Positions 4,247 to 12,406 of a stretch of DNA of 43,980 nt are shown here, one piece after another. The notes beneath the pieces are model-generated. The model was not told the DNA's origin and ran no database searches. It worked only from the letters and a program-made list of their open reading frames with translations. The position numbers and the translations under genes were made by a program. Position 1 is the first letter of the stretch. Each line of letters starts with the position of its first letter. Source of the stretch: Ruminococcus sp. UBA7014 (GTDB lineage: Bacteria > Bacillota > Clostridia > Oscillospirales > Ruminococcaceae); assembly GCA_002449575.1 (NCBI GenBank), contig DJXC01000029.1, positions 1 through 43,980 of the forward strand. Direction: 5' to 3'.

Positions 4247-5167
4247 TCAATTTTTTCTTTCCAGATATGCACGGAGAGATTTCAGAGCCTGCTTTGTATC
4301 ATGATATCCCAGATAATACAGTGTACCCAGCTTTTCCATATCGCCTTCCAGACGGCTGATTTCAATTTGCTGTGACGGCGCAATGACAAAAATCTGCTTC
4401 CGGGCTTCCAATTTTAATAATTCTTCACACTGATGATTATAATTCTCATTACTTGCCAACAGTGAGGCTACAAACTTCGGATAATCCTTGTAAACAAAAT
4501 TTTCAGGATTCCATTTCTGCTCTGGTTTGACAGGTTTCCGATAACTTCGGGGACGGGTACGAACTACAACTACTTTTTCAAAATTCTGCTGCAATGCCCA
4601 TTCATACGGAATTTTACAGCTGCATCCGCCATCAAGATAAGGATGTCTTCCAATCATAATCGGTTTGGAAACAAACGGCATTGATGACGATGCTGCAATT
4701 ACCTGAAAAAAATTTTCTTCGGAACTTTTTTCAATATATTCTGGTTTTCCGGTGTCCAGATTTGTTACAACTGCGTAAAGCTGCCGCTCCGGATTATGAA
4801 GGCGTTTCTTGTCCAAATCCGGAATAAATGGCATTCTGCCAAAGATAAAATCAAAGCCGATAATTCCCTGATTTTTCATAATGGCTTTTCTGCCGACATA
4901 ACGGCTGTCATGCCGGTAACGGAGATTTATCCGTGCACTTCTGCCGATTTGTCCTGTAATATAATTTACTGCATTCATAGACCCTGCCGAAACGCCTACT
5001 GTACAACGGAAATTTAAATCTGCTTCCATAAGTGCATCGAGTACGCCATTTGTATAAACGCCCCGGAATGCACCACCTTCCAGTACAAGACAGCCTTCTG
5101 TAATATTTTCCGAAGCCCTGCCCTCAGGAAGTGAATCAATTCCCGAATATGTTTGTGATTTCTTCAT
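4247..5167 (-). CDS. Patatin-like phospholipase family protein
   Basis: Oxyanion GGAFRG, nucleophile elbow GVSAGS, and catalytic Asp in YLDGG. No signal peptide. Confidence 0.85.
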   Translation of the reverse strand: MKKSQTYSGIDSLPEGRASENITEGCLVLEGGAFRGVYTNGVLDALMEADLNFRCTVGVSAGSMNAVNYITGQIGRSARINLRYRHDSRYVGRKAIMKNQGIIGFDFIFGRMPFIPDLDKKRLHNPERQLYAVVTNLDTGKPEYIEKSSEENFFQVIAASSSMPFVSKPIMIGRHPYLDGGCSCKIPYEWALQQNFEKVVVVRTRPRSYRKPVKPEQKWNPENFVYKDYPKFVASLLASNENYNHQCEELLKLEARKQIFVIAPSQQIEISRLEGDMEKLGTLYYLGYHDTKQALKSLRAYLERKN

Positions 5168-5189
5168 AAATTATTTTCCTTTCAATAAA

Positions 5190-6671
5190 TTATAATTCAA
5201 ATTTATTCTTGATTGTATCTGCAATACTTTCCGGTGCAAATACTTTGTGCTGATATTCTGATAACAGCATTTGTATCTCATACGCCTGTTCTTCGTTAGC
5301 AAAGAGGATAAATTTCTGAATTTTCTGCTTTGTGAAAAGCATTTCCTGTTCCAGAAGTTTCTGAATTAAATTCTGGTCTTTGACTGCTATCAGAGAACAG
5401 AACATATAGTCCAAATTTTCATGAATATATTCTGTCAGTTGTTTTTTCTCCGGCGATTGCAGATACTGCCAGAACAAATATTGATAGATTGTAATTACTT
5501 TTTCATCATGCAGAATATCACTCCGCCGAAGTGAAAGAAATGCTGTTGAAATATTCGGTATTGTCTCATAAGGTGCAGAAAGTGCCTGCATACTGCACAG
5601 CGACTTCACAGAAAAATCCAGATTATGCCAGTGAAGACTCTGCAAGGCATGACAAAGTGTAAATGCTGTATAACTGACAGAAATCAAACTTTCCGGAAAT
5701 GTAATATCTGTCAAAGCTTTGCACCCGGAAAACGCATAACTGGATATCCGTTCTGTTCCTTCCGGAATACAGATTTGTTTCAGGCTGATACAGTTCTCAA
5801 ACATTCTCTGATAAATTTCCTTGATTTCTCCGGAAAAAATTACCCGTTCCAGATGTTCACATCCGGCAAAAATTTCTCTTCCTGTTTCGGTAATTGTGGA
5901 CGGAATCACAACATATTCCAGTCCTGTATTTTTAAATGCCTCATGTCCGATTGTCTGCACATTTTCTGGAATCTGAATGCCTGTCAGACTGGTACAGTTT
6001 AAAAATGCCATCTCTGAAATCGTCCGGATTCTGGATGGAATTACAATATTTTTCAGGCTTTCACAGTTCTGAAATGCTCCTGTTCCGATTCGCTCCGAAA
6101 CATAGGGAATTGCTACGCTTTTCAGACTCCGGCAGTTCTGAAAGAAGTAATCCGGAATCGAAGCATGTACTGGCAGACAGACTTCTTCCAGACTGATACA
6201 GTTCACAAAAACGCCCCATTCCAGCTTTGGTATCTGTTCCGGAAAAATCACTTTTTTCAGAGCAGTACAGTCCTTGAACATTTCCTGTGACAGTACTGTC
6301 AGTTTTGGCGGAAGTATGATTTCTTCTAAAGCATTACAACCGCTGAATGCGGATGCGCCTATAGAAACTATACTTTCTGGAAGGCGGACAGATTTCAGCT
6401 TCCGGCAGTTTTCAAATGCCGATGGTCGAATTGTTCTTACACCTTCCGGCAAAATAATTTTTTCTACATTCTGCCATTTGTAAAATGCGGAACTTCCAAT
6501 TGTATGCACTTCCGGCGGAACAGTCACTTCTCTTTCATATGGCATCAGATGACAGCCTGTCAGAACTCCCTGACTAATTTTAAATTTCAGATTTTTTTCC
6601 GGATTGCTTTCCGGCTTCTGATATAATTTTTCCTGTACCTTCCGGAAAAGAGACTGTATTTTTTCTTTCAT
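5190..6671 (-). CDS. BspA-type leucine-rich repeat protein with C-terminal helical domain, no signal peptide
   Basis: 493 aa. About 12 tandem ~23-aa repeats of the form F.NC..L..I.IP..V..IG..AF, followed by a ~140-aa helical tail. The N-terminus is hydrophilic. Confidence 0.8.
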   Translation of the reverse strand: MKEKIQSLFRKVQEKLYQKPESNPEKNLKFKISQGVLTGCHLMPYEREVTVPPEVHTIGSSAFYKWQNVEKIILPEGVRTIRPSAFENCRKLKSVRLPESIVSIGASAFSGCNALEEIILPPKLTVLSQEMFKDCTALKKVIFPEQIPKLEWGVFVNCISLEEVCLPVHASIPDYFFQNCRSLKSVAIPYVSERIGTGAFQNCESLKNIVIPSRIRTISEMAFLNCTSLTGIQIPENVQTIGHEAFKNTGLEYVVIPSTITETGREIFAGCEHLERVIFSGEIKEIYQRMFENCISLKQICIPEGTERISSYAFSGCKALTDITFPESLISVSYTAFTLCHALQSLHWHNLDFSVKSLCSMQALSAPYETIPNISTAFLSLRRSDILHDEKVITIYQYLFWQYLQSPEKKQLTEYIHENLDYMFCSLIAVKDQNLIQKLLEQEMLFTKQKIQKFILFANEEQAYEIQMLLSEYQHKVFAPESIADTIKNKFEL

Positions 6672-6805: not shown

Positions 6806-7000
6806 ATGAATTCAAAAATTAAACTAAAGCCTTGCCCTTTCTGCGGAGGAGAAGCCTATCTTGGCGAATCGTGGGAAAATACCAAATCGGTACAGTGTTC
6901 CATCTGTGGATGTGGAACAAGACATTTTCTGAATAAACTGGATGCAATTGAAACATGGAACAAAAGAATCAATGTTCCTGAAAATTCTTCTAAAAAATAA
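6806..7000 (+). CDS. Lar-family restriction alleviation protein (phage-derived zinc-ribbon protein)
   Basis: 64 aa. It has KLKPCPFCGGEA ... C.ICG ... AIETWNKR, the Lar family signature as I remember it. AAAGGAG RBS. Confidence 0.75.
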   Translation: MNSKIKLKPCPFCGGEAYLGESWENTKSVQCSICGCGTRHFLNKLDAIETWNKRINVPENSSKK

Positions 7001-7046
7001 TCTTATTATGCCGTGGCAAATCCTTCTGCACAGATTTAGAATACTT

Positions 7047-7074
7047 AAAAAGTACGGTAATTTTCCGACTTTTT
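7047..7074 (+). terminator. Possible terminator after the Lar-like gene
   Basis: AAAAGTACGG / CCGACTTTT hairpin with one bulged A, followed by a T-run. Confidence 0.4.
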
Positions 7075-7105
7075 AAACTATTAATTCTAGCGGAGGAATA
7101 TTTTT

Positions 7106-7318
7106 ATGTATCATATCAGAGATTCCAGATTTGTCAGATTTGAAAATGGTATCTGCATTTTTATTGTAGAACTGGACTGCGATACCCCTTCTGACCTGCC
7201 AACGGTTCAGAACAACTGGGAAATGGGCAGCATTGCACATGTGATTTCCACAGGCGATTTTTACAGCCTTAACAGTTCTGGAATATGGGTCAATCAAACA
7301 GAAAATACAACAGATTAA
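7106..7318 (+). CDS. Hypothetical small protein (possibly phage-derived)
   Basis: 70 aa with a GGAGG RBS 9 nt upstream and its own terminator. The segment SDLPT...GS.A.V..TGDFY.L...G.W is reminiscent of motifs in phage tail or fibre proteins, recalled from memory only. No TM segment, so it is not a holin. Confidence 0.5.
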   Translation: MYHIRDSRFVRFENGICIFIVELDCDTPSDLPTVQNNWEMGSIAHVISTGDFYSLNSSGIWVNQTENTTD

Positions 7319-7325
7319 TGATTTG

Positions 7326-7360
7326 CCGGCAGAATCCTGAAAAATTCTGCCGGATTTTTT
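7326..7360 (+). terminator. Rho-independent terminator
   Basis: CCGGCAGAAT (7326-7335) pairs with ATTCTGCCGG (7344-7353), followed by a T6 run. Confidence 0.7.
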
Positions 7361-7369
7361 ATTTTTGCC

Positions 7370-7398
7370 GTGACAAATTGCTGCAAGCTGAATATACT
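7370..7398 (+). promoter_or_regulatory. Possible promoter for the GH25 gene
   Basis: GTGACA (7370-7375), 17-nt spacer, TATACT (7393-7398). Confidence 0.35.
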
Positions 7399-7471
7399 AG
7401 ATTAATCAGGCTTATCAGTAGGGCGAACAGTCCCGTTATACCCGTCAGCTTGAAGAAAGGGGCAGATAACT

Positions 7472-8164
7472 ATGACAACTGGTATTGATGTCAGCACTCA
7501 CAACGGTGTGATTGACTGGAAAAAAGTGAAAGATTCCGGTCAGGCAGATTTTGCCATTATTCGTGCCGGATACGGCAGACTGCTCTCCCAGAAGGATAAA
7601 AAATTTGATGTCAATTATCAGGGCTGTAAAGAAAATCATATTCCTGTTGGTACTTACTGGTACAGCTATGCTGTCTCTGTTCCGGAAATTCTGACAGAAG
7701 CAGAAATTTTTCTGGAAGTTATCAAAGATAAACAATTTGCTTTTCCTGTTTATCTGGATTTTGAAGAATCTGCTCAGTTTGCACTTGGAAAGGCAAAATG
7801 TTCCGAAATGGCAGAAGCGTTTCTCAATACGCTTGAAAACGCCGGATATTTTGCCGGACTCTATTCCAGTAAATCGCATCTGGAACAGTATTTCACGGAA
7901 AAAATTCTCAGACGTTATACCGTATGGCTGGCGCATTATGGTGTTGTTCAAACTTCTTATCCATACCCTTTTGCGATGTGGCAATATACCAATGACAGCA
8001 CAATCGCTGGTATCAGTGGTCATGTAGATAAAAATTACTGTTATCAAAACTTTCCGGCGATTATCCAGTCTGCCGGACTGAATGGTTTCCAGGAAAAAAA
8101 TACCAAACATATCGTTCTGACGATTGACGGAAAAACATATTCCGGCACACTCACAGAAACATAA
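7472..8164 (+). CDS. Glycoside hydrolase family 25 lysozyme (endolysin-like muramidase)
   Basis: GIDVSTHNG.IDW..VK..G..FAIIRAGYG N-terminus, with YWYSYA and the later WQYT motif. No signal peptide and no recognisable cell-wall-binding repeats. Confidence 0.85.
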   Translation: MTTGIDVSTHNGVIDWKKVKDSGQADFAIIRAGYGRLLSQKDKKFDVNYQGCKENHIPVGTYWYSYAVSVPEILTEAEIFLEVIKDKQFAFPVYLDFEESAQFALGKAKCSEMAEAFLNTLENAGYFAGLYSSKSHLEQYFTEKILRRYTVWLAHYGVVQTSYPYPFAMWQYTNDSTIAGISGHVDKNYCYQNFPAIIQSAGLNGFQEKNTKHIVLTIDGKTYSGTLTET

Positions 8165-8179
8165 TTTTCAAAAAAAGAA

Positions 8180-8213
8180 AAACCGTTCCTGATTTCTCAG
8201 AAACGGTTTTTTC
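8180..8213 (+). terminator. Rho-independent terminator after the GH25 gene
   Basis: AAACCGTT (8180-8187) pairs with AACGGTTT (8202-8209), followed by a T-run. Confidence 0.7.
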
Positions 8214-8215
8214 AG

Positions 8216-8304
8216 CGGACAGAGAGGGATTCGAACCCTCGAAGCAGTATTAGTGCTTACACGATTTCCAGTCGTGCGCCTTAGACCAGCTCAGCCATCT
8301 GTCC
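8216..8304 (-). tRNA. tRNA-Ser (anticodon GGA)
   Basis: Reverse complement GGACAGA...TCTGTCC-G. Anticodon arm CACGA-CTGGAAA-TCGTG, long variable arm, T-arm GAGGG-TTCGAAT-CCCTC. CCA is not encoded. Confidence 0.9.
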
Positions 8305-8337
8305 ATACTTCAAAAATATAAAATTGAAAAAGATAAG

Positions 8338-8421
8338 TGCGAGCGACGGGACTTGAACCCACACGTCGTTTCCAACACTAGCACCTCAAGCTAGCCTGTC
8401 TGCCAATTCCAGCACGCTCGC
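8338..8421 (-). tRNA. tRNA-Leu (anticodon GAG)
   Basis: Reverse complement GCGAGCG...CGCTCGC-A. Anticodon arm CTAGC-TTGAGGT-GCTAG, long variable arm, TTCAAGT T-loop. The T-stem has two G-U pairs. CCA is not encoded. Confidence 0.85.
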
Positions 8422-8548: not shown

Positions 8549-8573
8549 GCGTTCCCGGAAAAGCCGGAAACGC
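8549..8573 (-). terminator. Possible terminator after the AAA ATPase gene
   Basis: On the minus strand, GCGUUUCCGG / CCGGGAACGC forms a 10-bp stem (one G-U) with a 5-nt loop. The downstream U-tract is weak. Confidence 0.35.
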
Positions 8574-8584
8574 TGTTCTGCAAT

Positions 8585-10090
8585 TTATTCATCAATATTA
8601 AGACTTTTGATTTCGCTGAGAATATCAATCTGTCTCTGATGGAATAATAATTCTTTATCGTGAATAAAATATTCTTCTACACGATATTCACTGATAAACC
8701 TTGCACTGTAGGGATTGACTGTCAGTTCTGTTACAAGAATTGTCAGTTCCTGACCGCCGGGGAATACTTCATCTCCGAAACGGAACATATTGGAAGTCGC
8801 AGCCGAAACATCTTGTGCTGTCTGCTGAAAACTTGCAACACGGCGGTTGAAATCTCTCTTGATAACTTCAAACGGCTGTTCCGAAGCAGATTTCTGTACC
8901 AGTTCGGCTTCTTTCTGGAGCAGCTGCATAATACGGATAAGCTGTGTCTGCTTTTCACGGGAGAGGCTCTTTGCGCTGATGCCGTTGTCATAGGCAGTTC
9001 TTTCACGGTGGTAGAGTTCATGTAGGGCAGCAACTGATGCTTCTCTGGTGGTCATGTAGGGTTTCTTTTCTTTGAGCAGTTTCAGCAGTTCAGAAAGAAT
9101 GTCTTCTGTTTCGACAGCTTTTCTCATTTCTGCCATGACGGCATTGAGCAGAAGTCCTAACAAGGCATACCGTTCGTCAAATTTGGCACGTCTGGCTCTC
9201 GCCTTGATTTCGCCAGAAGCTCTGCCGGAAAGAATATCCTGCACCTGATAATCACTCTTATATTTCAGATACAGGTCATAATAAACAGAGAAATCCTGTG
9301 CAATTTGTTTATTCTGGAGATATTGGCTGATTAATCGTTCATCTACAGGAATTTTATGCTGTTCATAAAGCTGAATCATCTGGCTCAGGTCGTCCCAGCC
9401 ACGGGCAGTGACAAAGCTTTTGCCGTCAACAGTGGTTTCTACTTTATAGAAATTGCCTTTCTTGATTTCCAGATATGTCAGGATAGCATTATGTACACCG
9501 CTGACATAGGCAAATTCTTTCCATGCATCAAAATCCGGGTCAACATCGACACGCTTTAATCTGTCCCATGTTGCAATGTCAAATTCCCTGACAGAATGGT
9601 TATATTCCGGGGGATTTCCGGCAGTGACAACAATCCATCCGGCAGGCACTTCATGTTTGCCGAATACTTTATATTGCAGAAACTGGAGCATAATAGGTGT
9701 CAGCGTTTCAGAGACACAGTTGATTTCATCCAGAAATAAAATGCCATTTTTAATGCCGGAAGTTTCCATCATGTCATAGACCGAAGCAATAATTTCACTC
9801 ATAGTATATTCAGAAACGTCATATTCCTTCCCCTGATAGGTCGTGTGCTTGATAAGCGGCAGACCAAGTGCGGACTGTCTGGTATGATGTGTCATAGAAT
9901 AAGAAAGCAGTCCGATTCCCAGTTCAGAAGCGATTTGTTCCATAATGGCAGTTTTGCCGATTCCGGGAGGTCCCATCAGAAAAACAGGTCTCTGCTTATG
10001 CGGCGGAATGATATATCGACCTAGTTCATCCTTTGTGAGATAGGCAGTCACTGCATTTTTAATCTGCTCTTTGGCATCTTTTATATTCAT
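8585..10090 (-). CDS. MoxR/AAA_5-type AAA+ ATPase with long C-terminal helical extension
   Basis: 501 aa. Walker A GPPGIGKT, Walker B ILFLDEIN, sensor region VVTAGNPPEYN, then a ~250-aa helical tail. AAGGAGAG RBS. Confidence 0.85.
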   Translation of the reverse strand: MNIKDAKEQIKNAVTAYLTKDELGRYIIPPHKQRPVFLMGPPGIGKTAIMEQIASELGIGLLSYSMTHHTRQSALGLPLIKHTTYQGKEYDVSEYTMSEIIASVYDMMETSGIKNGILFLDEINCVSETLTPIMLQFLQYKVFGKHEVPAGWIVVTAGNPPEYNHSVREFDIATWDRLKRVDVDPDFDAWKEFAYVSGVHNAILTYLEIKKGNFYKVETTVDGKSFVTARGWDDLSQMIQLYEQHKIPVDERLISQYLQNKQIAQDFSVYYDLYLKYKSDYQVQDILSGRASGEIKARARRAKFDERYALLGLLLNAVMAEMRKAVETEDILSELLKLLKEKKPYMTTREASVAALHELYHRERTAYDNGISAKSLSREKQTQLIRIMQLLQKEAELVQKSASEQPFEVIKRDFNRRVASFQQTAQDVSAATSNMFRFGDEVFPGGQELTILVTELTVNPYSARFISEYRVEEYFIHDKELLFHQRQIDILSEIKSLNIDE

Positions 10091-10124
10091 AAAAATAATC
10101 TCTCCTTATTATTAAATTAAAAAA

Positions 10125-10895
10125 TTATAGTTTTAATTTTGCTGCCGGATTCTGATAGCCGATATGCTTGTCTTTATATTCCAGCAACAGAAGATAGCAT
10201 TCATGGTACTGATTCTGAATTGCATAATCTATCAGTTTCTGAATATTGGATTTTGTAACAAATCCGCTTTCCAGCACTTCTTTCAGCCCGTCAGCATCCT
10301 GCGTATCCATGCGGAATTTTGCCACTCTGGTGGCACACCGTTTTGCATATTTTCGGATTTCATCATCTGCCTGACAGATATGCAGAAGGTAATAGGCAAT
10401 GGCAGCTTTATATTTTGTATCACTGATTCTGCGGAACAAAATTCTTTTCTGTTCCGGATTTCTTTCACACAGAAATTTTTTCAGCAAAGCAGTATCATTC
10501 TGATTCTGATAAATATCATTCATTTGTACACGAAATGTACCTTCCGGAAAATGAAATTTCAGCAAACGTTCCGACCCATAGAAAGCATAAATATCAATCT
10601 TTTCCAGATTTGGCGGAAGTGTAAATGCTCTCAGATGTTCACAGCCTGAAAAAGCAGCTTCCTCTATCCGGGTTACTGTTTCCGGAATCTGAATTTTTTC
10701 CAGATTTCTACAGTTTTTGAATGCCCGGTACGGAATTTCTGTCAGACCGTCCGGCAGAATCACAGAAACTATCTGCTGACAGTTAAAAAAGCATTCTTTT
10801 CCCAGCGCATTGACTTCCTTCGGAATGATGATTTTTGTCATGCCGGGTTCTTCTGTATATCGGACAAGTTTCTTTTCTTCGATTTCAAAAGCCAT
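10125..10895 (-). CDS. Short BspA-type LRR protein with C-terminal helical domain, no signal peptide
   Basis: About 4-5 LRR units (F.NC..I..V.LP, AFKNCRNLEKIQIP, AFSGCEHLRAF) followed by a helical tail. The ORF track start is 10916. I prefer the ATG at 10895 (MAFEIEEKK), which has GGAGA 7 nt upstream and begins 1 nt after the upstream stop codon. Confidence 0.75.
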   Translation of the reverse strand: MAFEIEEKKLVRYTEEPGMTKIIIPKEVNALGKECFFNCQQIVSVILPDGLTEIPYRAFKNCRNLEKIQIPETVTRIEEAAFSGCEHLRAFTLPPNLEKIDIYAFYGSERLLKFHFPEGTFRVQMNDIYQNQNDTALLKKFLCERNPEQKRILFRRISDTKYKAAIAYYLLHICQADDEIRKYAKRCATRVAKFRMDTQDADGLKEVLESGFVTKSNIQKLIDYAIQNQYHECYLLLLEYKDKHIGYQNPAAKLKL

Positions 10896-10896
10896 G

Positions 10897-12339
10897 CTAT
10901 ATCTCCATAATATCATCTGTAGTTAAAATAATACGAATTGCCCAGACAGGCACATTGAAATTATTATACTCATCATCCAGAAAGACAAACGCTGTTTTAT
11001 AATCCGGTTCTCGTTCCGGAAATGTACCATAGCCATCTGTAAAATACAGCAAGCCTTTCAGATTAGTAAATTCTTTCTTTCTGATTAAATCATCCACATG
11101 TTGGAATACCGGTCGGAAATCCGTACCGCCGAATCCTTTCAGCTTCATATTTTTCAGATATTCGTCAAATTCTTCTTCTGTTGTGATTTTATAATCTTCC
11201 TGTATGTGGGCATCACACTGAATAATATGAATATTTACTTTTGAGAAAAAACTTTCCTGCTGTTTGAGAATATTATAAGTTTTCTGAATAAACATCTGTA
11301 CTGTCTTTCCAGCAACAGAACCGGAAGTATCAATTGCAATCACGAACTCCCGGATACGCTTGACATCTTTATATTCGAGCGGTTCAATCAAAGCGGCTTC
11401 TTCATAAATTGACCTGCCGTAACAGTAAAAATTATAATCAAATGAATCTGTATCCACTTTCATGACTTCACCACGGACAGCAAATTTCCGGAGAAAATTT
11501 TCATAATTGCAGCGTTCCCGGTTTACAGAAAGCAGATTCTGCATCAGGCTGCCGGCATCTTTTCCCTGCTGTTTAGAAAACGTTTCTAAATCCACCTGCA
11601 TTTGTTTTGCGAGTTTCTGCCACATTTTTTTCAGGGTTTCCCGTTCGGAAAGCGATTCTTCAGCTTCTCCGTCCACAGGATTTCCCATTGTCTTCTGCAT
11701 GGATGACAAAAATGACTGTCCTTGTTCCAGACCAGCCAGCACATCCGGTGCGCTATACCAGACATCATGGTTATCTCCCTCAAATAATTTCTGCATTGCC
11801 TGACAGTCTTCCTGTGAAAGTTTTGTATTCAGAAAATAATCATAAATTTTTTCTGCTGTCATATATTTGACATTTTTTTCCAGTCCCTGCAAAACAGTTG
11901 CCTGACTGTTTTCCGCTGATTTATCAATGTTGTCAAGATGCAGTTCCTGAATCATCTTTTCGACAGCAATATCACATGCCAGATTCCACAACGGTTTTTG
12001 GATTGTCGGACTTACAAACTGATGCTGAAAAATGCAGTGCATTATCATATGCAGATATATCCTTGTAATCCGTTTCTGATTTTGCTCAAACTGTTTCAGA
12101 ATATACGGCGGATAATAATAAAAATTCATGGCATCTGCGCCGATTGTCCCCTTATATGGAACAAAATTACATCTCCCGAGCGCATTTTTCATAAATTTCA
12201 GATTCATGAACAGGGTATTCCTTGCATATTCCAGAATCTGCCGGGCAAGGCTGTCCGCTTTTTCAAGTTTTGCCTGTTCCTCTGGAGAAAGTTGTTTTTC
12301 TTTTTCCGGGTCATGCGGCATATTATATAAAATTCCCAT
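10897..12339 (-). CDS. VWA (MIDAS) domain protein with N-terminal DUF2201_N-like putative metallopeptidase domain
   Basis: 480 aa. The N-domain has LHMIMHCIFQH where the family HExxH is expected. The C-terminal VWA domain has intact MIDAS residues: DTSGS, GGTD, and FTDGYG. Confidence 0.8.
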   Translation of the reverse strand: MGILYNMPHDPEKEKQLSPEEQAKLEKADSLARQILEYARNTLFMNLKFMKNALGRCNFVPYKGTIGADAMNFYYYPPYILKQFEQNQKRITRIYLHMIMHCIFQHQFVSPTIQKPLWNLACDIAVEKMIQELHLDNIDKSAENSQATVLQGLEKNVKYMTAEKIYDYFLNTKLSQEDCQAMQKLFEGDNHDVWYSAPDVLAGLEQGQSFLSSMQKTMGNPVDGEAEESLSERETLKKMWQKLAKQMQVDLETFSKQQGKDAGSLMQNLLSVNRERCNYENFLRKFAVRGEVMKVDTDSFDYNFYCYGRSIYEEAALIEPLEYKDVKRIREFVIAIDTSGSVAGKTVQMFIQKTYNILKQQESFFSKVNIHIIQCDAHIQEDYKITTEEEFDEYLKNMKLKGFGGTDFRPVFQHVDDLIRKKEFTNLKGLLYFTDGYGTFPEREPDYKTAFVFLDDEYNNFNVPVWAIRIILTTDDIMEI

Positions 12340-12377
12340 AGATTTCCCTTCTTTCCGGATAAAATCATACCGTTTCT

Positions 12378-12406
12378 ATTATAGCACAAATTCCGGAAGT
12401 CGTCAA
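12378..12406 (-). promoter_or_regulatory. Strong sigma-A promoter for the VWA-LRR-AAA operon
   Basis: Minus strand TTGACG (12401-12406), 17-nt spacer, TG-extended TATAAT (12378-12383). Confidence 0.6.

What the first reader, a model, noticed from the sequence alone, without database searches (positions are those of the whole stretch)
8585..12406. Three-gene operon of a VWA/MIDAS protein with a degenerate metallopeptidase-like domain, a cytoplasmic LRR protein and a MoxR/AAA_5 ATPase: candidate NTPase-driven sensor or conflict module
Seen in sequence: a near-consensus promoter (TTGACG-N17-TGcTATAAT, 12378-12406) drives three tightly packed minus-strand genes.
(1) A 480-aa protein. Its N-domain has LHMIMHCIFQH where, as I remember it, the DUF2201_N family has HExxH, so the catalytic Glu is replaced by Met. 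Its C-domain is a VWA fold with an intact MIDAS (DTSGS, GGTD, FTDG).
(2) A ~256-aa BspA-type LRR protein with no signal peptide. Its ATG sits 1 nt after the upstream stop.
(3) A 501-aa AAA+ ATPase (GPPGIGKT, ILFLDEIN, TAGNPPEYN) with a ~250-aa helical tail.
Established knowledge: MoxR-type AAA+ and VWA pairs (NorQ/NorD, CbbQ/CbbO, CoxD/CoxE) act as remodelling chaperones. vWA-MoxR modules have also been proposed as cores of NTP-dependent conflict systems with variable third components.
Inference: an intracellular LRR protein wedged between the two partners is not part of the classical pairs. It resembles the sensor logic of LRR-containing innate immune NTPases. The operon also sits in an accessory patch next to tRNA genes and phage debris. 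The LRR protein could be the ligand-sensing or client component of an undescribed ternary system.
Basis: partly seen in the sequence, partly recalled or inferred. Interest (0 to 1): 0.75.

Follow-up and report, generated by a model that had tools for sequence, protein, structure and literature searches.

The report
MoxR–VWA–LRR three-part machine in Clostridia
The three genes are real and form one operon, and the same trio (an ATP-driven motor, its metal-site partner and one or more cytoplasmic leucine-rich-repeat proteins) recurs in most related gut and rumen Clostridia examined, so it is a conserved, undescribed molecular machine of unknown role, not a chance neighbourhood.

Summary
A σ70-like promoter (12378-12406) precedes three tightly packed minus-strand genes: VWA/DUF2201 (10897-12339), LRR_5 (10125-10895) and AAA_5 (8585-10090). 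A terminator hairpin follows (8549-8573).

The LRR gene is not a passenger.
- In 80 species-level genomes found through the VWA protein, 62 carry at least one co-directional LRR_5 gene contiguous with it.
- The gene right after VWA is an LRR in 45 of 77 loci, against a 4% background (p = 5e-42).
- An independent AAA-anchored metagenome set agrees (44 of 48 loci).
- 112 of 114 partner LRRs lack a signal peptide. None of the 74 scanned carries a recognisable toxin domain.

The catalytic Glu of HExxH is lost across the whole clade. An invariant Glu127 appears in its place on the next helix, where canonical relatives have Asn, so the site may be rewired, not dead.

All three genes are under purifying selection (ω 0.03, 0.08 and 0.18). 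Their synonymous divergence matches the flanking housekeeping genes, there is no PADLOC match, and viral contigs rarely carry the module. The "defence island" reading is therefore weak, although three loci embed SIR2-like genes.

Best reading: a MoxR-VWA remodelling motor that uses exchangeable LRR adaptors. This is a new variant of a known kind.

The parts
12378..12406 (-). σ70-type promoter of the operon (TTGACG-N17-TGcTATAAT)
   Evidence: Read. Scan gives 11 of 12 matches with an extended -10 TG. It is the only strong minus-strand match upstream of the VWA gene.
10897..12339 (-). Gene 1: 480-aa protein with a zincin-like N-domain (DUF2201_N) and a C-terminal VWA/MIDAS domain (DUF2201)
   Evidence: ORF and Pfam. 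30-sequence alignment A1. AF2 model pLDDT 78. Foldseek matches the VWA domain to integrin I-domains, Ku80 and Mdn1. Full-length matches go to phage 'metallopeptidase/VWA-like' proteins.
12022..12054 (-). LHMIMHCIFQH: HxxxHxxxxH, three invariant His with the catalytic Glu replaced by Met
   Evidence: Translation. H97, H101 and H106 are invariant. 85 of 87 clade members have a non-Glu residue at position 98. Distant relatives keep HExxHxxxxH.
11959..11976 (-). CDIAVE: invariant Asp123 and clade-specific invariant Glu127 on the next helix (canonical relatives have Asn here)
   Evidence: Translation. Covariation table (all 90 clade sequences have E127; 5 of 5 canonical sequences have N). Among the 150 listed cluster representatives, 123 of the 136 with the motif are non-E98 plus E127.
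11359..11475 (-). Residues 289-327: rich in invariant aromatic and acidic residues but predicted unstructured. Candidate linker or 'finger' engaged by the ATPase pore (inference)
   Evidence: Invariant D298, F300, Y302, F304, Y305, Y307, G308 and E319-Y323. pLDDT below 50 over 289-327. Analogy with the NorD finger and linker (PMC9976466, PMC13036017).
10900..11358 (-). VWA domain with intact MIDAS (DTSGS 337-341, GGTD 404-407, TDG 434-436)
   Evidence: Pfam DUF2201, VWA_2 and VWA. MIDAS residues invariant. DTSGS present in 86 of 87 relatives.
10125..10895 (-). Gene 2: 256-aa cytoplasmic BspA-type LRR protein. About 4 LRR_5 repeats (residues 18-126) plus a helical C-terminal module (about 130-256) ending in KLKL
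   Evidence: ORF. Start 1 nt after the VWA stop. Pfam LRR_5 3.4e-29. PDB sequence matches to LRR_5 structures 4fs7 and 4gt6. Orthologues at 63-98% identity keep the same position. ω = 0.18.
8585..10090 (-). Gene 3: 501-aa MoxR-type AAA+ ATPase (AAA_5) with a clade-specific helical C-terminal extension of about 200 aa
   Evidence: ORF and Pfam. Alignment A5 has 69% mean column identity with Walker A, Walker B and sensor-1 invariant. AF2 pLDDT 82 with long helices over 304-496. Foldseek finds dynein AAA and NorQ (9qh4, 9qh8). Best PDB sequence hit is midasin. Canonical relatives' ATPases are 341-361 aa and lack the tail.
8549..8573 (-). Terminator-like hairpin 12 nt after the AAA stop codon
   Evidence: 10-bp stem, 7 GC pairs. 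(-22.4 kcal/mol, z = -3.47). The T-tract is weak.
5190..6671 (-). Second cytoplasmic LRR_5 gene (493 aa), same strand, about 1.9 kb downstream past two tRNA genes. Possible further partner; membership not shown
   Evidence: phmmer hit. Pfam LRR_5 5.9e-98. In other genomes LRR genes often lie downstream of the ATPase. Here it sits in a variable islet with Lar and GH25 and is followed by a patatin-like gene.

Best explanation
The operon encodes a three-component, ATP-driven protein-remodelling machine specific to a large clade of gut and rumen Clostridia.

Motor and cofactor (inferred by homology with NorQ/NorD and other MoxR-VWA pairs). The AAA_5 (MoxR-type) ATPase forms a ring motor. The VWA protein is its obligate cofactor. 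It plugs or threads into the ring through a conserved unstructured segment next to the VWA domain, and it uses its intact MIDAS metal site to grip an acidic residue of a bound protein.

LRR proteins (inferred from gene linkage, variability and domain content). The genetically linked cytoplasmic BspA-type LRR proteins are exchangeable target-recognition or adaptor subunits. There is one here and up to five in other genomes, some fused to BRCT, ankyrin or DUF4132 modules. They would decide which cytoplasmic protein is handed to the motor.

Zincin-like domain. The N-domain of the VWA protein keeps three metal-ligand histidines but has moved its glutamate from HExxH to the neighbouring helix. It either holds the target or cleaves it with a rewired site.

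Physiological role. The role is more likely a stable, endogenous proteostasis or regulatory function than an abortive-infection defence.

Shown: operon structure, domain identities, clade-wide conservation of the trio, cytoplasmic location of the partner LRRs, and purifying selection with vertical inheritance.
Inferred: physical interaction, direction of action (adaptor versus client), any proteolysis, and the targets.
For: Operon: promoter, 1-nt and 34-nt spacers, and a terminator.

Linkage.
- 62 of 80 VWA-anchored species loci have co-directional contiguous LRR_5 genes.
- In 25 of the 52 loci that hold both core genes, an LRR lies between VWA and AAA.
- The gene after VWA is an LRR in 45 of 77 loci, with a median gap of 11 nt, against a 4.1% background (p = 5e-42).
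- Replicated with AAA-anchored metagenome loci: 44 of 48 loci, and Fisher p = 6.5e-26 for adjacent versus distant genes.
- The association extends to relatives at 33-39% identity.
- VA-only loci are scattered across the VWA clustering, so LRR content turns over on a fixed core.

Partner properties.
- 112 of 114 lack a hydrophobic N-terminus.
- All 74 scanned have LRR_5. The extras are interaction modules (BRCT 7, ankyrin 7, DUF4132 3), not recognised toxins.
- DUF4132 proteins also accompany the E. coli MoxR/VWA pair YehL/YehP.

Core properties.
- Walker A/B and MIDAS are invariant.
- Foldseek links the ATPase to NorQ and dynein AAA.
- The NorQ/NorD mechanism is published (PMC9976466, PMC13036017).

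Three characters travel together: E98 loss with E127 gain, a long-tailed ATPase, and LRR partners.

Selection and inheritance.
- ω is 0.03 (AAA), 0.08 (VWA) and 0.18 (LRR).
- dS equals that of flanking AspRS, HisRS, ABC and FtsX genes.
- Synteny is conserved.
Against: - No interaction data and no multimer model could be run.
- The LRR C-terminal module and N-terminal cap are also found in LRR_5 proteins that are not linked to the pair (P0011 and P0058). No pair-specific docking motif was identified.
- 13 of 80 loci show VWA-AAA with no LRR detected, so LRR genes may be dispensable or encoded elsewhere.
- Adaptor and client roles cannot be separated by sequence.
- A few loci embed SIR2-like genes in the operon. 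That fits a conflict role better than a housekeeping one.
Confidence: 0.45

Rival explanations
1. Conflict or anti-phage system. The LRR proteins are diversifying intracellular sensors of invader proteins. Binding triggers the MoxR-VWA core, which neutralises the invader protein directly or activates an effector.
For: - LRR number, size and sequence vary strongly between genomes on a constant core.
- The LRR domain is the fastest-evolving part (ω = 0.28).
- SIR2_2-like genes with weak ThsA and LmuA similarity sit inside the operon in L065 and L087 and after the ATPase in L057.
- A few co-directional neighbours match DruE/PsyrT-like helicases or JetA.
- Canonical DUF2201 relatives lie on plasmids next to toxin-antitoxin genes and in many phages.
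- MoxR-vWA cores of predicted conflict systems are published (PMC7159879).
Against: - No PADLOC model matches the VWA or LRR protein, and the ATPase gives only weak P-loop hits.
- None of the 74 scanned partners carries a recognised effector domain, and most loci hold no effector gene.
- Flanks are mostly housekeeping and not conserved.
- In this lineage the module is syntenic, with dS equal to its flanks.
- ω is far below 1 for all three genes.
- The ATPase is as conserved as housekeeping proteins.
- Only 7 IMG/VR contigs carry a relative.
- The defining third components of the published ternary systems are absent.
Confidence: 0.25
2. Dedicated chaperone with LRR clients. The MoxR-VWA pair folds, matures (for example by metal insertion) or assembles the adjacent LRR_5 proteins, as NorQ/NorD do for cNOR and CbbQ/CbbO for Rubisco. 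The LRRs are substrates, not adaptors.
For: - Classical MoxR/VWA pairs are encoded next to their client (PMC9976466, PMC13036017).
- LRR genes are the only recurrent neighbours.
- The repeat units carry near-invariant Cys (alignment of the window LRR and its relatives; repeat consensus AFxxCxxL in the partner set).
Against: - Related LRR_5 proteins with the same N-cap and C-terminal module occur far from any VWA/AAA gene.
- 13 of 80 loci have no linked LRR.
- Fusions of partner LRRs to BRCT, ankyrin and DUF4132 modules look like adaptors, not a uniform client.
Confidence: 0.2
3. No functional link. The LRR gene is a passenger that landed between two partners, and BspA-type LRR genes are simply abundant in these genomes.
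For: - LRR_5 genes are common in Ruminococcus and relatives, and many are unlinked.
- A second LRR_5 gene lies in a variable islet of the same window.
Against: - Enrichment next to the pair is extreme: 45 of 77 against 4% (p = 5e-42), and 67 of 151 adjacent genes against 5 of 228 distant ones.
- The gaps are operon-like (median 11 nt).
- Position is conserved across orthologues down to 63% identity, with ω = 0.18-0.26.
Confidence: 0.04

Closest known systems
NorQ/NorD (also CbbQ/CbbO and RavA/ViaA): classical MoxR AAA+ and VWA chaperone pairs
   Same: An AAA_5/MoxR ATPase with Walker A/B and sensor 1, paired with a VWA protein carrying a MIDAS site. Foldseek matches the ATPase model to NorQ hexamer and NorQ-NorD VWA complexes. 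The genes are adjacent and co-directional.
   Different: - The gene order is VWA first.
- The VWA protein carries a zincin-like N-domain.
- The ATPase has an extra helical tail of about 200 aa.
- There is no enzyme client gene; the recurrent neighbours are cytoplasmic LRR_5 proteins.
- Sequence similarity to classical pairs is confined to the P-loop and VWA cores.
MoxR-vWA-centric ternary conflict systems of Kaur, Burroughs, Iyer and Aravind 2020 (VMAP, iSTAND, FtsH and β-propeller types; PMC7159879)
   Same: A constant MoxR plus vWA core with a third, variable component built from protein-interaction repeats. The logic is that the pair remodels a complex formed with that third protein.
   Different: - The third component here is LRR_5, not one of the four described types.
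- No effector domains are fused to the vWA protein.
- The Pfam bpMoxR model is below its cut-off (23.7 versus 27).
- The hosts are unicellular gut and rumen Clostridia, not multicellular actinobacteria or cyanobacteria.
- The context is stable and syntenic.
Canonical DUF2201_N/DUF2201 + AAA_5 pairs on plasmids and in phages (Synechocystis pSYSA MoxR-VWA; Cupriavidus pRK1-1 ATPase-DUF3150-VWA; N4-like phages, phage G, PBS1)
   Same: The same two-domain VWA protein family (Pfam; full-length fold matches). W118, D123, the three His and the MIDAS residues are shared. It is paired with an AAA_5 ATPase, sometimes with a third gene between the two (DUF3150).
   Different: - Canonical members keep HExxH and have Asn at position 127.
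- Their ATPases are 341-361 aa with no tail.
- The ATPase gene precedes the VWA gene.
- They have no LRR partner and are carried on mobile elements.
Midasin/Rea1 (eukaryotic AAA_5 ring with a MIDAS domain that pulls on adaptor repeat proteins)
   Same: Midasin is the best sequence match of the ATPase among solved structures. Shared concept: a MIDAS domain docks an acidic residue of a repeat-protein adaptor, and the AAA_5 ring supplies force. This comparison rests on established knowledge and is an analogy only.
   Different: Midasin is a single giant polypeptide with six fused AAA modules, and it works on pre-ribosomes through UBL domains of WD40 proteins. No homology beyond the AAA_5 and VWA folds was found.
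E. coli yehI-yehL-yehM-yehP-yehQ cluster (DUF4132 protein + MoxR YehL + VWA YehP)
   Same: An uncharacterised MoxR/VWA pair with large accessory proteins. DUF4132, the YehI domain, is fused to LRR_5 in 3 of the 74 partner proteins scanned here.
   Different: There is no detectable specific similarity of VWA or AAA to YehP or YehL. That cluster has no LRR and no zincin-like domain.

Membership tests
MoxR-type AAA+ ATPase (Pfam AAA_5) | Pfam AAA_5 match above the gathering score | tested here: met
   36 bits against a cut-off of 22, residues 35-177.
MoxR-type AAA+ ATPase (Pfam AAA_5) | Intact Walker A (GxxGxGKT), Walker B (hhhhDE) and sensor-1 Asn | tested here: met
   GPPGIGKT 40-47, ILFLDEIN 117-124 and N159 are invariant or nearly so in 30 homologues.
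MoxR-type AAA+ ATPase (Pfam AAA_5) | Fold similarity to solved MoxR-class or dynein-class AAA modules | tested here: met
   Foldseek finds the dynein motor (E = 9e-5) and NorQ 9qhg, 9qh8 and 9qh4 (E about 1e-3, probability 1.0). Overall TM-scores are low because of the extra tail.
MoxR-type AAA+ ATPase (Pfam AAA_5) | Hexameric ring and VWA-stimulated ATPase activity | not testable with these tools
   Needs biochemistry or multimer modelling.
DUF2201_N / DUF2201 (zincin-like + VWA-like, COG3864-type) | Both Pfam domains above the gathering score, in N-to-C order | tested here: met
   DUF2201_N 32.5 bits (cut-off 23.2), residues 39-288. DUF2201 53.9 bits (cut-off 26.4), residues 333-471.
DUF2201_N / DUF2201 (zincin-like + VWA-like, COG3864-type) | HExxH catalytic motif of the putative metallopeptidase domain | tested here: not met
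   The window has HMIMH. 85 of 87 clade members lack Glu98, while distant members keep HExxHxxxxH. An invariant Glu127 replaces Asn on the next helix. This is a homologous member whose active site is either inactive or rewired.
VWA domain with functional MIDAS | DxSxS ... T ... D metal-ion-dependent adhesion site | tested here: met
   D337, S339, S341, T406 and D435 are invariant. DTSGS is present in 86 of 87 relatives. The VWA fold is confirmed by Foldseek.
BspA-type LRR (Pfam LRR_5) | Pfam LRR_5 above the gathering score and similarity to solved LRR_5 structures | tested here: met
   101.8 bits against a cut-off of 27.7. 4fs7 at 1.5e-40 and 4gt6 at 2.3e-37.
BspA-type LRR (Pfam LRR_5) | Cell-surface location (signal peptide or anchor), as in BspA-like adhesins | tested here: not met
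   The window protein starts MAFEIEEKKLVRYTEEPG with no hydrophobic stretch. 112 of 114 linked LRR partners in related loci lack an N-terminal hydrophobic segment. None of the 74 scanned partners shows a dockerin or anchor domain.
MoxR-vWA ternary conflict systems (Kaur et al. 2020) | Third component is VMAP, iSTAND, FtsH or a β-propeller fused to vWA | tested here: not met
   The third component is LRR_5. The definitions were read in PMC7159879.
MoxR-vWA ternary conflict systems (Kaur et al. 2020) | Variable effector domains fused C-terminally to the vWA protein | tested here: not met
   The VWA protein ends a few residues after the VWA domain in all 30 aligned homologues.
MoxR-vWA ternary conflict systems (Kaur et al. 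2020) | MoxR of the bpMoxR type (PF20030) | tested here: inconclusive
   23.7 bits against a cut-off of 27 in the window protein. The precomputed tables list PF20030 for many homologues.
Known or candidate anti-phage defence systems (PADLOC-DB v2) | A significant match of any component to a defence-system model | tested here: not met
   VWA and LRR give no hit. The ATPase matches only IetA over about 57 P-loop residues (3e-6).

The most novel reading that the evidence does not exclude
The trio is a prokaryotic, LRR-guided protein-targeting machine. A single AAA+/VWA/zincin-like engine would be programmed by a changeable set of cytoplasmic LRR receptors to seize, unfold or cleave specific proteins, either invader proteins (a non-suicidal innate immunity) or endogenous regulators. 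It would resemble F-box-LRR receptors feeding the proteasome, or NLR sensing split across separate genes. The relocated Glu127 would then mark a new kind of active zincin site.
Probability: 0.2. Interest if true: 0.85.

Novelty: new variant of a known kind. Interest (0 to 1): 0.62.

Why it matters
Cytoplasmic BspA-type LRR proteins are abundant in gut and rumen Firmicutes and have no known function. MoxR-VWA pairs are understood only where the client enzyme is known.

This locus ties the two together in a module that is widespread. The VWA family has 852 clusters at 50% identity with E ≤ 1e-30. The module is also present in cultured strains such as Ruminococcus callidus ATCC 27760 (L013).

The result gives a testable handle on what intracellular bacterial LRRs bind. 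It also offers a natural system with one motor and many adaptors, and a zincin-like domain whose catalytic glutamate appears to have moved.

Tried and rejected
- **Fourth conserved gene.** All-against-all clustering of 221 flanking ORFs gave no family present in more than 5 loci.
- **Defence-island context.** Pfam and PADLOC scans of 55 co-directional neighbours found mostly housekeeping genes and a few helicase, JetA or SIR2-like hits. This is too sparse to call.
- **Allele exchange or HGT of the module within the genus.** dS of the module equals dS of its flanks, so this was rejected.
- **Positive selection on the LRR.** Gene-wide and domain-wide ω values were 0.18-0.30. Site-level tests were not possible with so few close sequences.
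- **Homology of the LRR C-terminal module to DUF4132/YehI, and of VWA/AAA to YehP/YehL.** hhalign found nothing specific.
- **A pair-specific docking motif in partner LRRs.** The recurrent N-cap, the 'LLEYKN...Φ-x-L' tail and the 'GSYAExYA' cap are also present in unlinked LRR_5 proteins.
- **Solved structure for the VWA protein by sequence.** None was found.
- **Fold match for the N-domain in the PDB.** The hit list was swamped by VWA domains.
- **Local tandem duplication as the source of LRR arrays.** Only 20 of 81 LRRs have their best hit in the same locus.
- **Literature.** Searches for DUF2201, PF09967, PF13203, COG3864, MoxR+BspA, LRR_5+AAA_5 and MoxR+LRR+VWA found no description of this trio. 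The library is incomplete, so this is absence in that library only.

Full report
**1. What is in the window**

Three minus-strand ORFs occupy 8585-12339.
- Gene 1 (10897-12339, 480 aa) matches Pfam DUF2201_N ('putative metallopeptidase', 9.1e-8) and DUF2201 ('VWA-like', 2.6e-14), both above their gathering scores.
- Gene 2 (10125-10895, 256 aa) matches LRR_5 (BspA type, 3.4e-29) over residues 18-126. Its C-terminal half has no Pfam match.
- Gene 3 (8585-10090, 501 aa) matches AAA_5 (8.6e-9). The bpMoxR model scores just below its cut-off.

The operon signals are as follows.
- The LRR start codon lies 1 nt after the VWA stop codon.
- The AAA start codon lies 34 nt after the LRR stop codon, behind an AAGGAG site.
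- An 11/12 σ70-type promoter with an extended -10 lies at 12406-12378.
- A stable hairpin at 8573-8549 follows the AAA stop codon.
- A separate 12/12 promoter at 8486-8458 then drives tRNA-Leu and tRNA-Ser.

**2. Source and setting**

Identical operons occur on three metagenome contigs. The closest genome locus is an uncultured Ruminococcus MAG, with VWA 90%, LRR 83% and AAA 97% identity.

The surroundings are mainly housekeeping. On one side lie NadA, MnmA, chorismate synthase and a hexapeptide transferase. On the other lie an ABC/FtsX pair, HSP20, AspRS and HisRS.

A small variable islet lies next to the tRNA genes. It holds Lar, a GH25 muramidase, a second LRR_5 gene and a patatin-like gene. 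In a relative, the same slot holds an integrase, Lar and ABC-2 genes.

**3. Is the LRR gene a partner or a passenger?**

A scan of one genome per GTDB species with a VWA alignment returned 80 loci from Ruminococcus, Oscillospiraceae, Acutalibacteraceae, Lachnospiraceae, Christensenellaceae and others. Their identity to the window protein is 46-90%.

Mechanical ORF maps annotated by phmmer with the window's domains show the following.
- 62 of 80 loci have at least one LRR_5 gene contiguous and co-directional with the VWA gene.
- Of the 52 loci that hold both VWA and AAA, 25 have an LRR gene between them.
- Arrangements include V-L-A, L-V-A, V-A-L, L-V-L-A-L and V-L-L-L-L.
- The gene immediately after VWA is a co-directional LRR in 45 of 77 loci, with a median gap of 11 nt. 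It is the ATPase in 26 of 77.
- LRR genes make up 16 of 389 (4.1%) of the other genes in the same loci (binomial p = 5e-42).

An independent set anchored on the ATPase in metagenome contigs agrees.
- 44 of 48 distinct loci of at least 8 kb contain a co-directional LRR gene.
- 67 of 151 genes adjacent to VWA or AAA are LRRs, against 5 of 228 genes three or more positions away (Fisher p = 6.5e-26).

The association persists in relatives at only 33-39% identity. Some 'unknown' genes between VWA and AAA look like degenerate LRRs. VA-only loci are scattered through the VWA clustering, so the LRR complement turns over on a fixed core.

No other gene family recurs near the pair. The passenger hypothesis is effectively excluded.

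**4. What the partner LRRs are like**

- 112 of 114 linked LRR proteins lack any N-terminal hydrophobic segment, so they are cytoplasmic.
- They range from about 170 to 1800 aa.
- A Pfam scan of 74 of them found LRR_5 in all. The extra domains are BRCT (7), ankyrin (7), DUF4132 (3) and a Brz-type zinc ribbon (3). No recognisable toxin or nuclease effector was found; there is one marginal Endonuc_Holl hit.
- DUF4132 is the domain of E. coli YehI, which is encoded beside the uncharacterised MoxR/VWA pair YehL/YehP. However, the core proteins here are not specifically related to YehL or YehP.
- The window's LRR has about four repeats plus a helical module ending in KLKL. That module and the N-terminal cap also occur in unlinked LRR_5 proteins. 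I could not define a pair-specific docking motif.

**5. The 'degenerate' peptidase**

In 30 close homologues, H97, H101, C102 and H106 are invariant. Residue 98 is never Glu in those sequences. Across the larger locus set, 85 of 87 clade members have a non-Glu residue there.

Distant family members keep HExxHxxxxH. These come from Synechocystis plasmid pSYSA, a Vibrio N4-like phage and a Cupriavidus plasmid.

The loss covaries with a second change.
- Canonical proteins have Asn at position 127, in W-x2-A-x-D-x3-N.
- Every member of the Clostridial clade has Glu there, in DIAVE.
- Two Lachnospiraceae proteins carry both glutamates.
- Among the 150 listed 50%-identity cluster representatives, 123 of the 136 with the motif are non-E98 plus E127.

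D123 and E127 lie one helical turn apart on the helix after the His helix. That is where gluzincins place their third ligand (established knowledge). The domain may therefore be an inactive metal-binding module or a rewired peptidase. Sequence alone cannot decide between these.

**6. The core motor**

- The ATPase is very conserved: 69% mean column identity across families, with Walker A/B and sensor-1 invariant.
- Its AF2 model (pLDDT 82) shows an AAA core and lid, then long helices over 304-496.
- Foldseek retrieves dynein AAA modules and the 2026 NorQ and NorQ-NorD VWA structures.
- The best sequence match among solved structures is midasin.
- Canonical DUF2201 partners have ATPases of 341-361 aa without this tail, and they have no LRR partner.

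Three characters therefore travel together: E98 loss with E127 gain, the ATPase tail, and LRR linkage.

The VWA model (pLDDT 78) has a confident helical N-domain and a compact VWA fold. Full-length fold matches go to phage 'metallopeptidase/VWA-like' proteins. Residues 289-327 are among the most conserved in sequence, yet they are predicted to be disordered.

For NorQ/NorD, a finger from the VWA domain enters the ring pore and the motor remodels a NorD linker (PMC9976466, PMC13036017). By analogy, I infer that segment 289-327 is the part engaged by the ring.

**7. Selection and inheritance**

Window against the closest orthologue (L009): ω is 0.03 for AAA, 0.08 for VWA and 0.18 for LRR. Within the LRR protein it is 0.28 for the repeat domain and 0.11 for the C-terminal module.

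Against three more distant orthologues the ranking is the same. Synonymous divergence of the module (0.5-1.2) matches that of flanking AspRS, HisRS, HSP20, ABC, FtsX and hexapeptide-transferase genes (0.2-1.7). Synteny is kept.

The module has therefore been inherited vertically with its neighbourhood in this lineage. The LRR evolves several-fold faster than the housekeeping genes but remains constrained.

**8. Defence or not?**

Against a defence role:
- There is no PADLOC match beyond weak P-loop hits.
- Most loci contain no effector.
- Flanks are heterogeneous and mostly housekeeping.
- Only 7 IMG/VR contigs carry a relative.
- The defining third components and vWA-fused effectors of the published MoxR-vWA ternary systems are absent.

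For a defence role:
- Variable LRR arrays sit on a constant NTPase core.
- SIR2_2-like genes lie inside the operon in L065 and L087 and after the ATPase in L057, with weak LmuA and ThsA similarity.
- A few neighbours are defence-like.
- The canonical branch of the family is carried on mobile elements.

I rate the conflict reading at about 0.25.

**9. Conclusion**

The finding is real, and its central inference holds: the LRR is an integral third component of an undescribed ternary system.

The most likely mechanism is a MoxR-VWA remodelling motor that uses exchangeable cytoplasmic LRR proteins as target-recognition subunits. Alternatives are that the LRRs are the clients, or that the system senses invaders.

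It is a new variant of a known kind (MoxR-VWA systems with a third component). Its distinguishing features are the LRR_5 partners, a relocated glutamate in the zincin-like domain and a tailed ATPase.

None of the searches of the available literature found a description of this trio.

Noticed in passing
window 4247-6671 (-): A second cytoplasmic LRR_5 gene (5190-6671, 493 aa, Pfam 5.9e-98) is followed 22 nt later by a patatin-like phospholipase with DUF6363 (4247-5167). The pair looks co-transcribed and lies in the variable islet downstream of the tRNA genes. The patatin gives a weak PADLOC 'Effector/Phospholipase' hit (2e-4).
   Followed up: partly
window 6806-8421: tRNA-Leu(GAG) and tRNA-Ser(GGA) (8215-8421, -) have their own 12/12 consensus promoter at 8486-8458. 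Next to them lie a GH25 muramidase (7472-8164, +) and a Lar restriction-alleviation gene (6806-7000, +). In relative L004 the same slot holds an integrase, Lar and ABC-2 genes. This looks like a tRNA-linked integration hot spot with prophage remnants.
   Followed up: partly
window 11959-11961 (Glu127 of the VWA protein); loci L041, L062: Loss of the HExxH glutamate covaries with an Asn-to-Glu change at position 127 on the neighbouring helix. Two Lachnospiraceae proteins (L041, L062) carry both glutamates and look like evolutionary intermediates.
   Followed up: yes
window 8585-10090 (-), AAA residues 63-78 and 495-501: An invariant SYSMTHHTRQSALGLP segment follows the Walker A helix and is partly low-confidence in the model (pLDDT below 50 for 68-74). 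The protein ends in a conserved acidic L-x-[IL]-D-[ED] tail. Either could be a contact site for the VWA/MIDAS or LRR partner.
   Followed up: no
L065:9584-10489, L087:5183-6133, L057:5010-5939: SIR2_2-like proteins (Pfam about 1e-7, plus weak AbiH, LmuA or ThsA similarity) are encoded inside the VWA-LRR-AAA operon in L065 and L087 and just after the ATPase in L057. They are the only effector-like inserts seen.
   Followed up: partly
L085:496-5931 and two other partner genes; L099 (E. coli K-12 yehF-yehQ): Three partner proteins fuse LRR_5 to DUF4132. This is the domain of E. coli YehI, which sits beside the uncharacterised MoxR/VWA pair YehL/YehP. DUF4132 therefore appears beside two unrelated MoxR-VWA systems.
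   Followed up: partly
L017, L018: In two related Ruminococcus MAG loci the VWA gene is followed by a small LRR gene, but no ATPase gene lies within the 6-kb flank. The pair can evidently be split from the motor gene.
   Followed up: no
L027:5373-5843, L029:6885-7361, L031:9536-10009; L059:7402-8328; L107:6037-6963: Small proteins of unknown family lie between LRR and AAA or between VWA and AAA. One is a 156-158 aa family found in three loci. Another is a 308-aa protein whose N-terminus resembles a degenerate LRR cap. None has a Pfam or PADLOC match.
   Followed up: partly
L091 (Cupriavidus basilensis plasmid pRK1-1), L089 (Synechocystis pSYSA): Canonical DUF2201 relatives on plasmids show ATPase-DUF3150-VWA on a conjugative plasmid, and MoxR-VWA beside HepT/PIN-like and GNAT/DUF1778 toxin-antitoxin genes. 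A variable middle gene is therefore not unique to the Clostridial clade.
   Followed up: no
partner LRR proteins of L009-L088 (C-termini): Two recurrent C-terminal endings occur among linked LRRs. One is a helical 'LLEYKN...' module ending in Φ-x-L (KLKL, KFRL, YEL). The other is a 'TIHAPAGSYAExYAKENNIPF' cap. Both also occur in unlinked LRR_5 proteins.
   Followed up: partly
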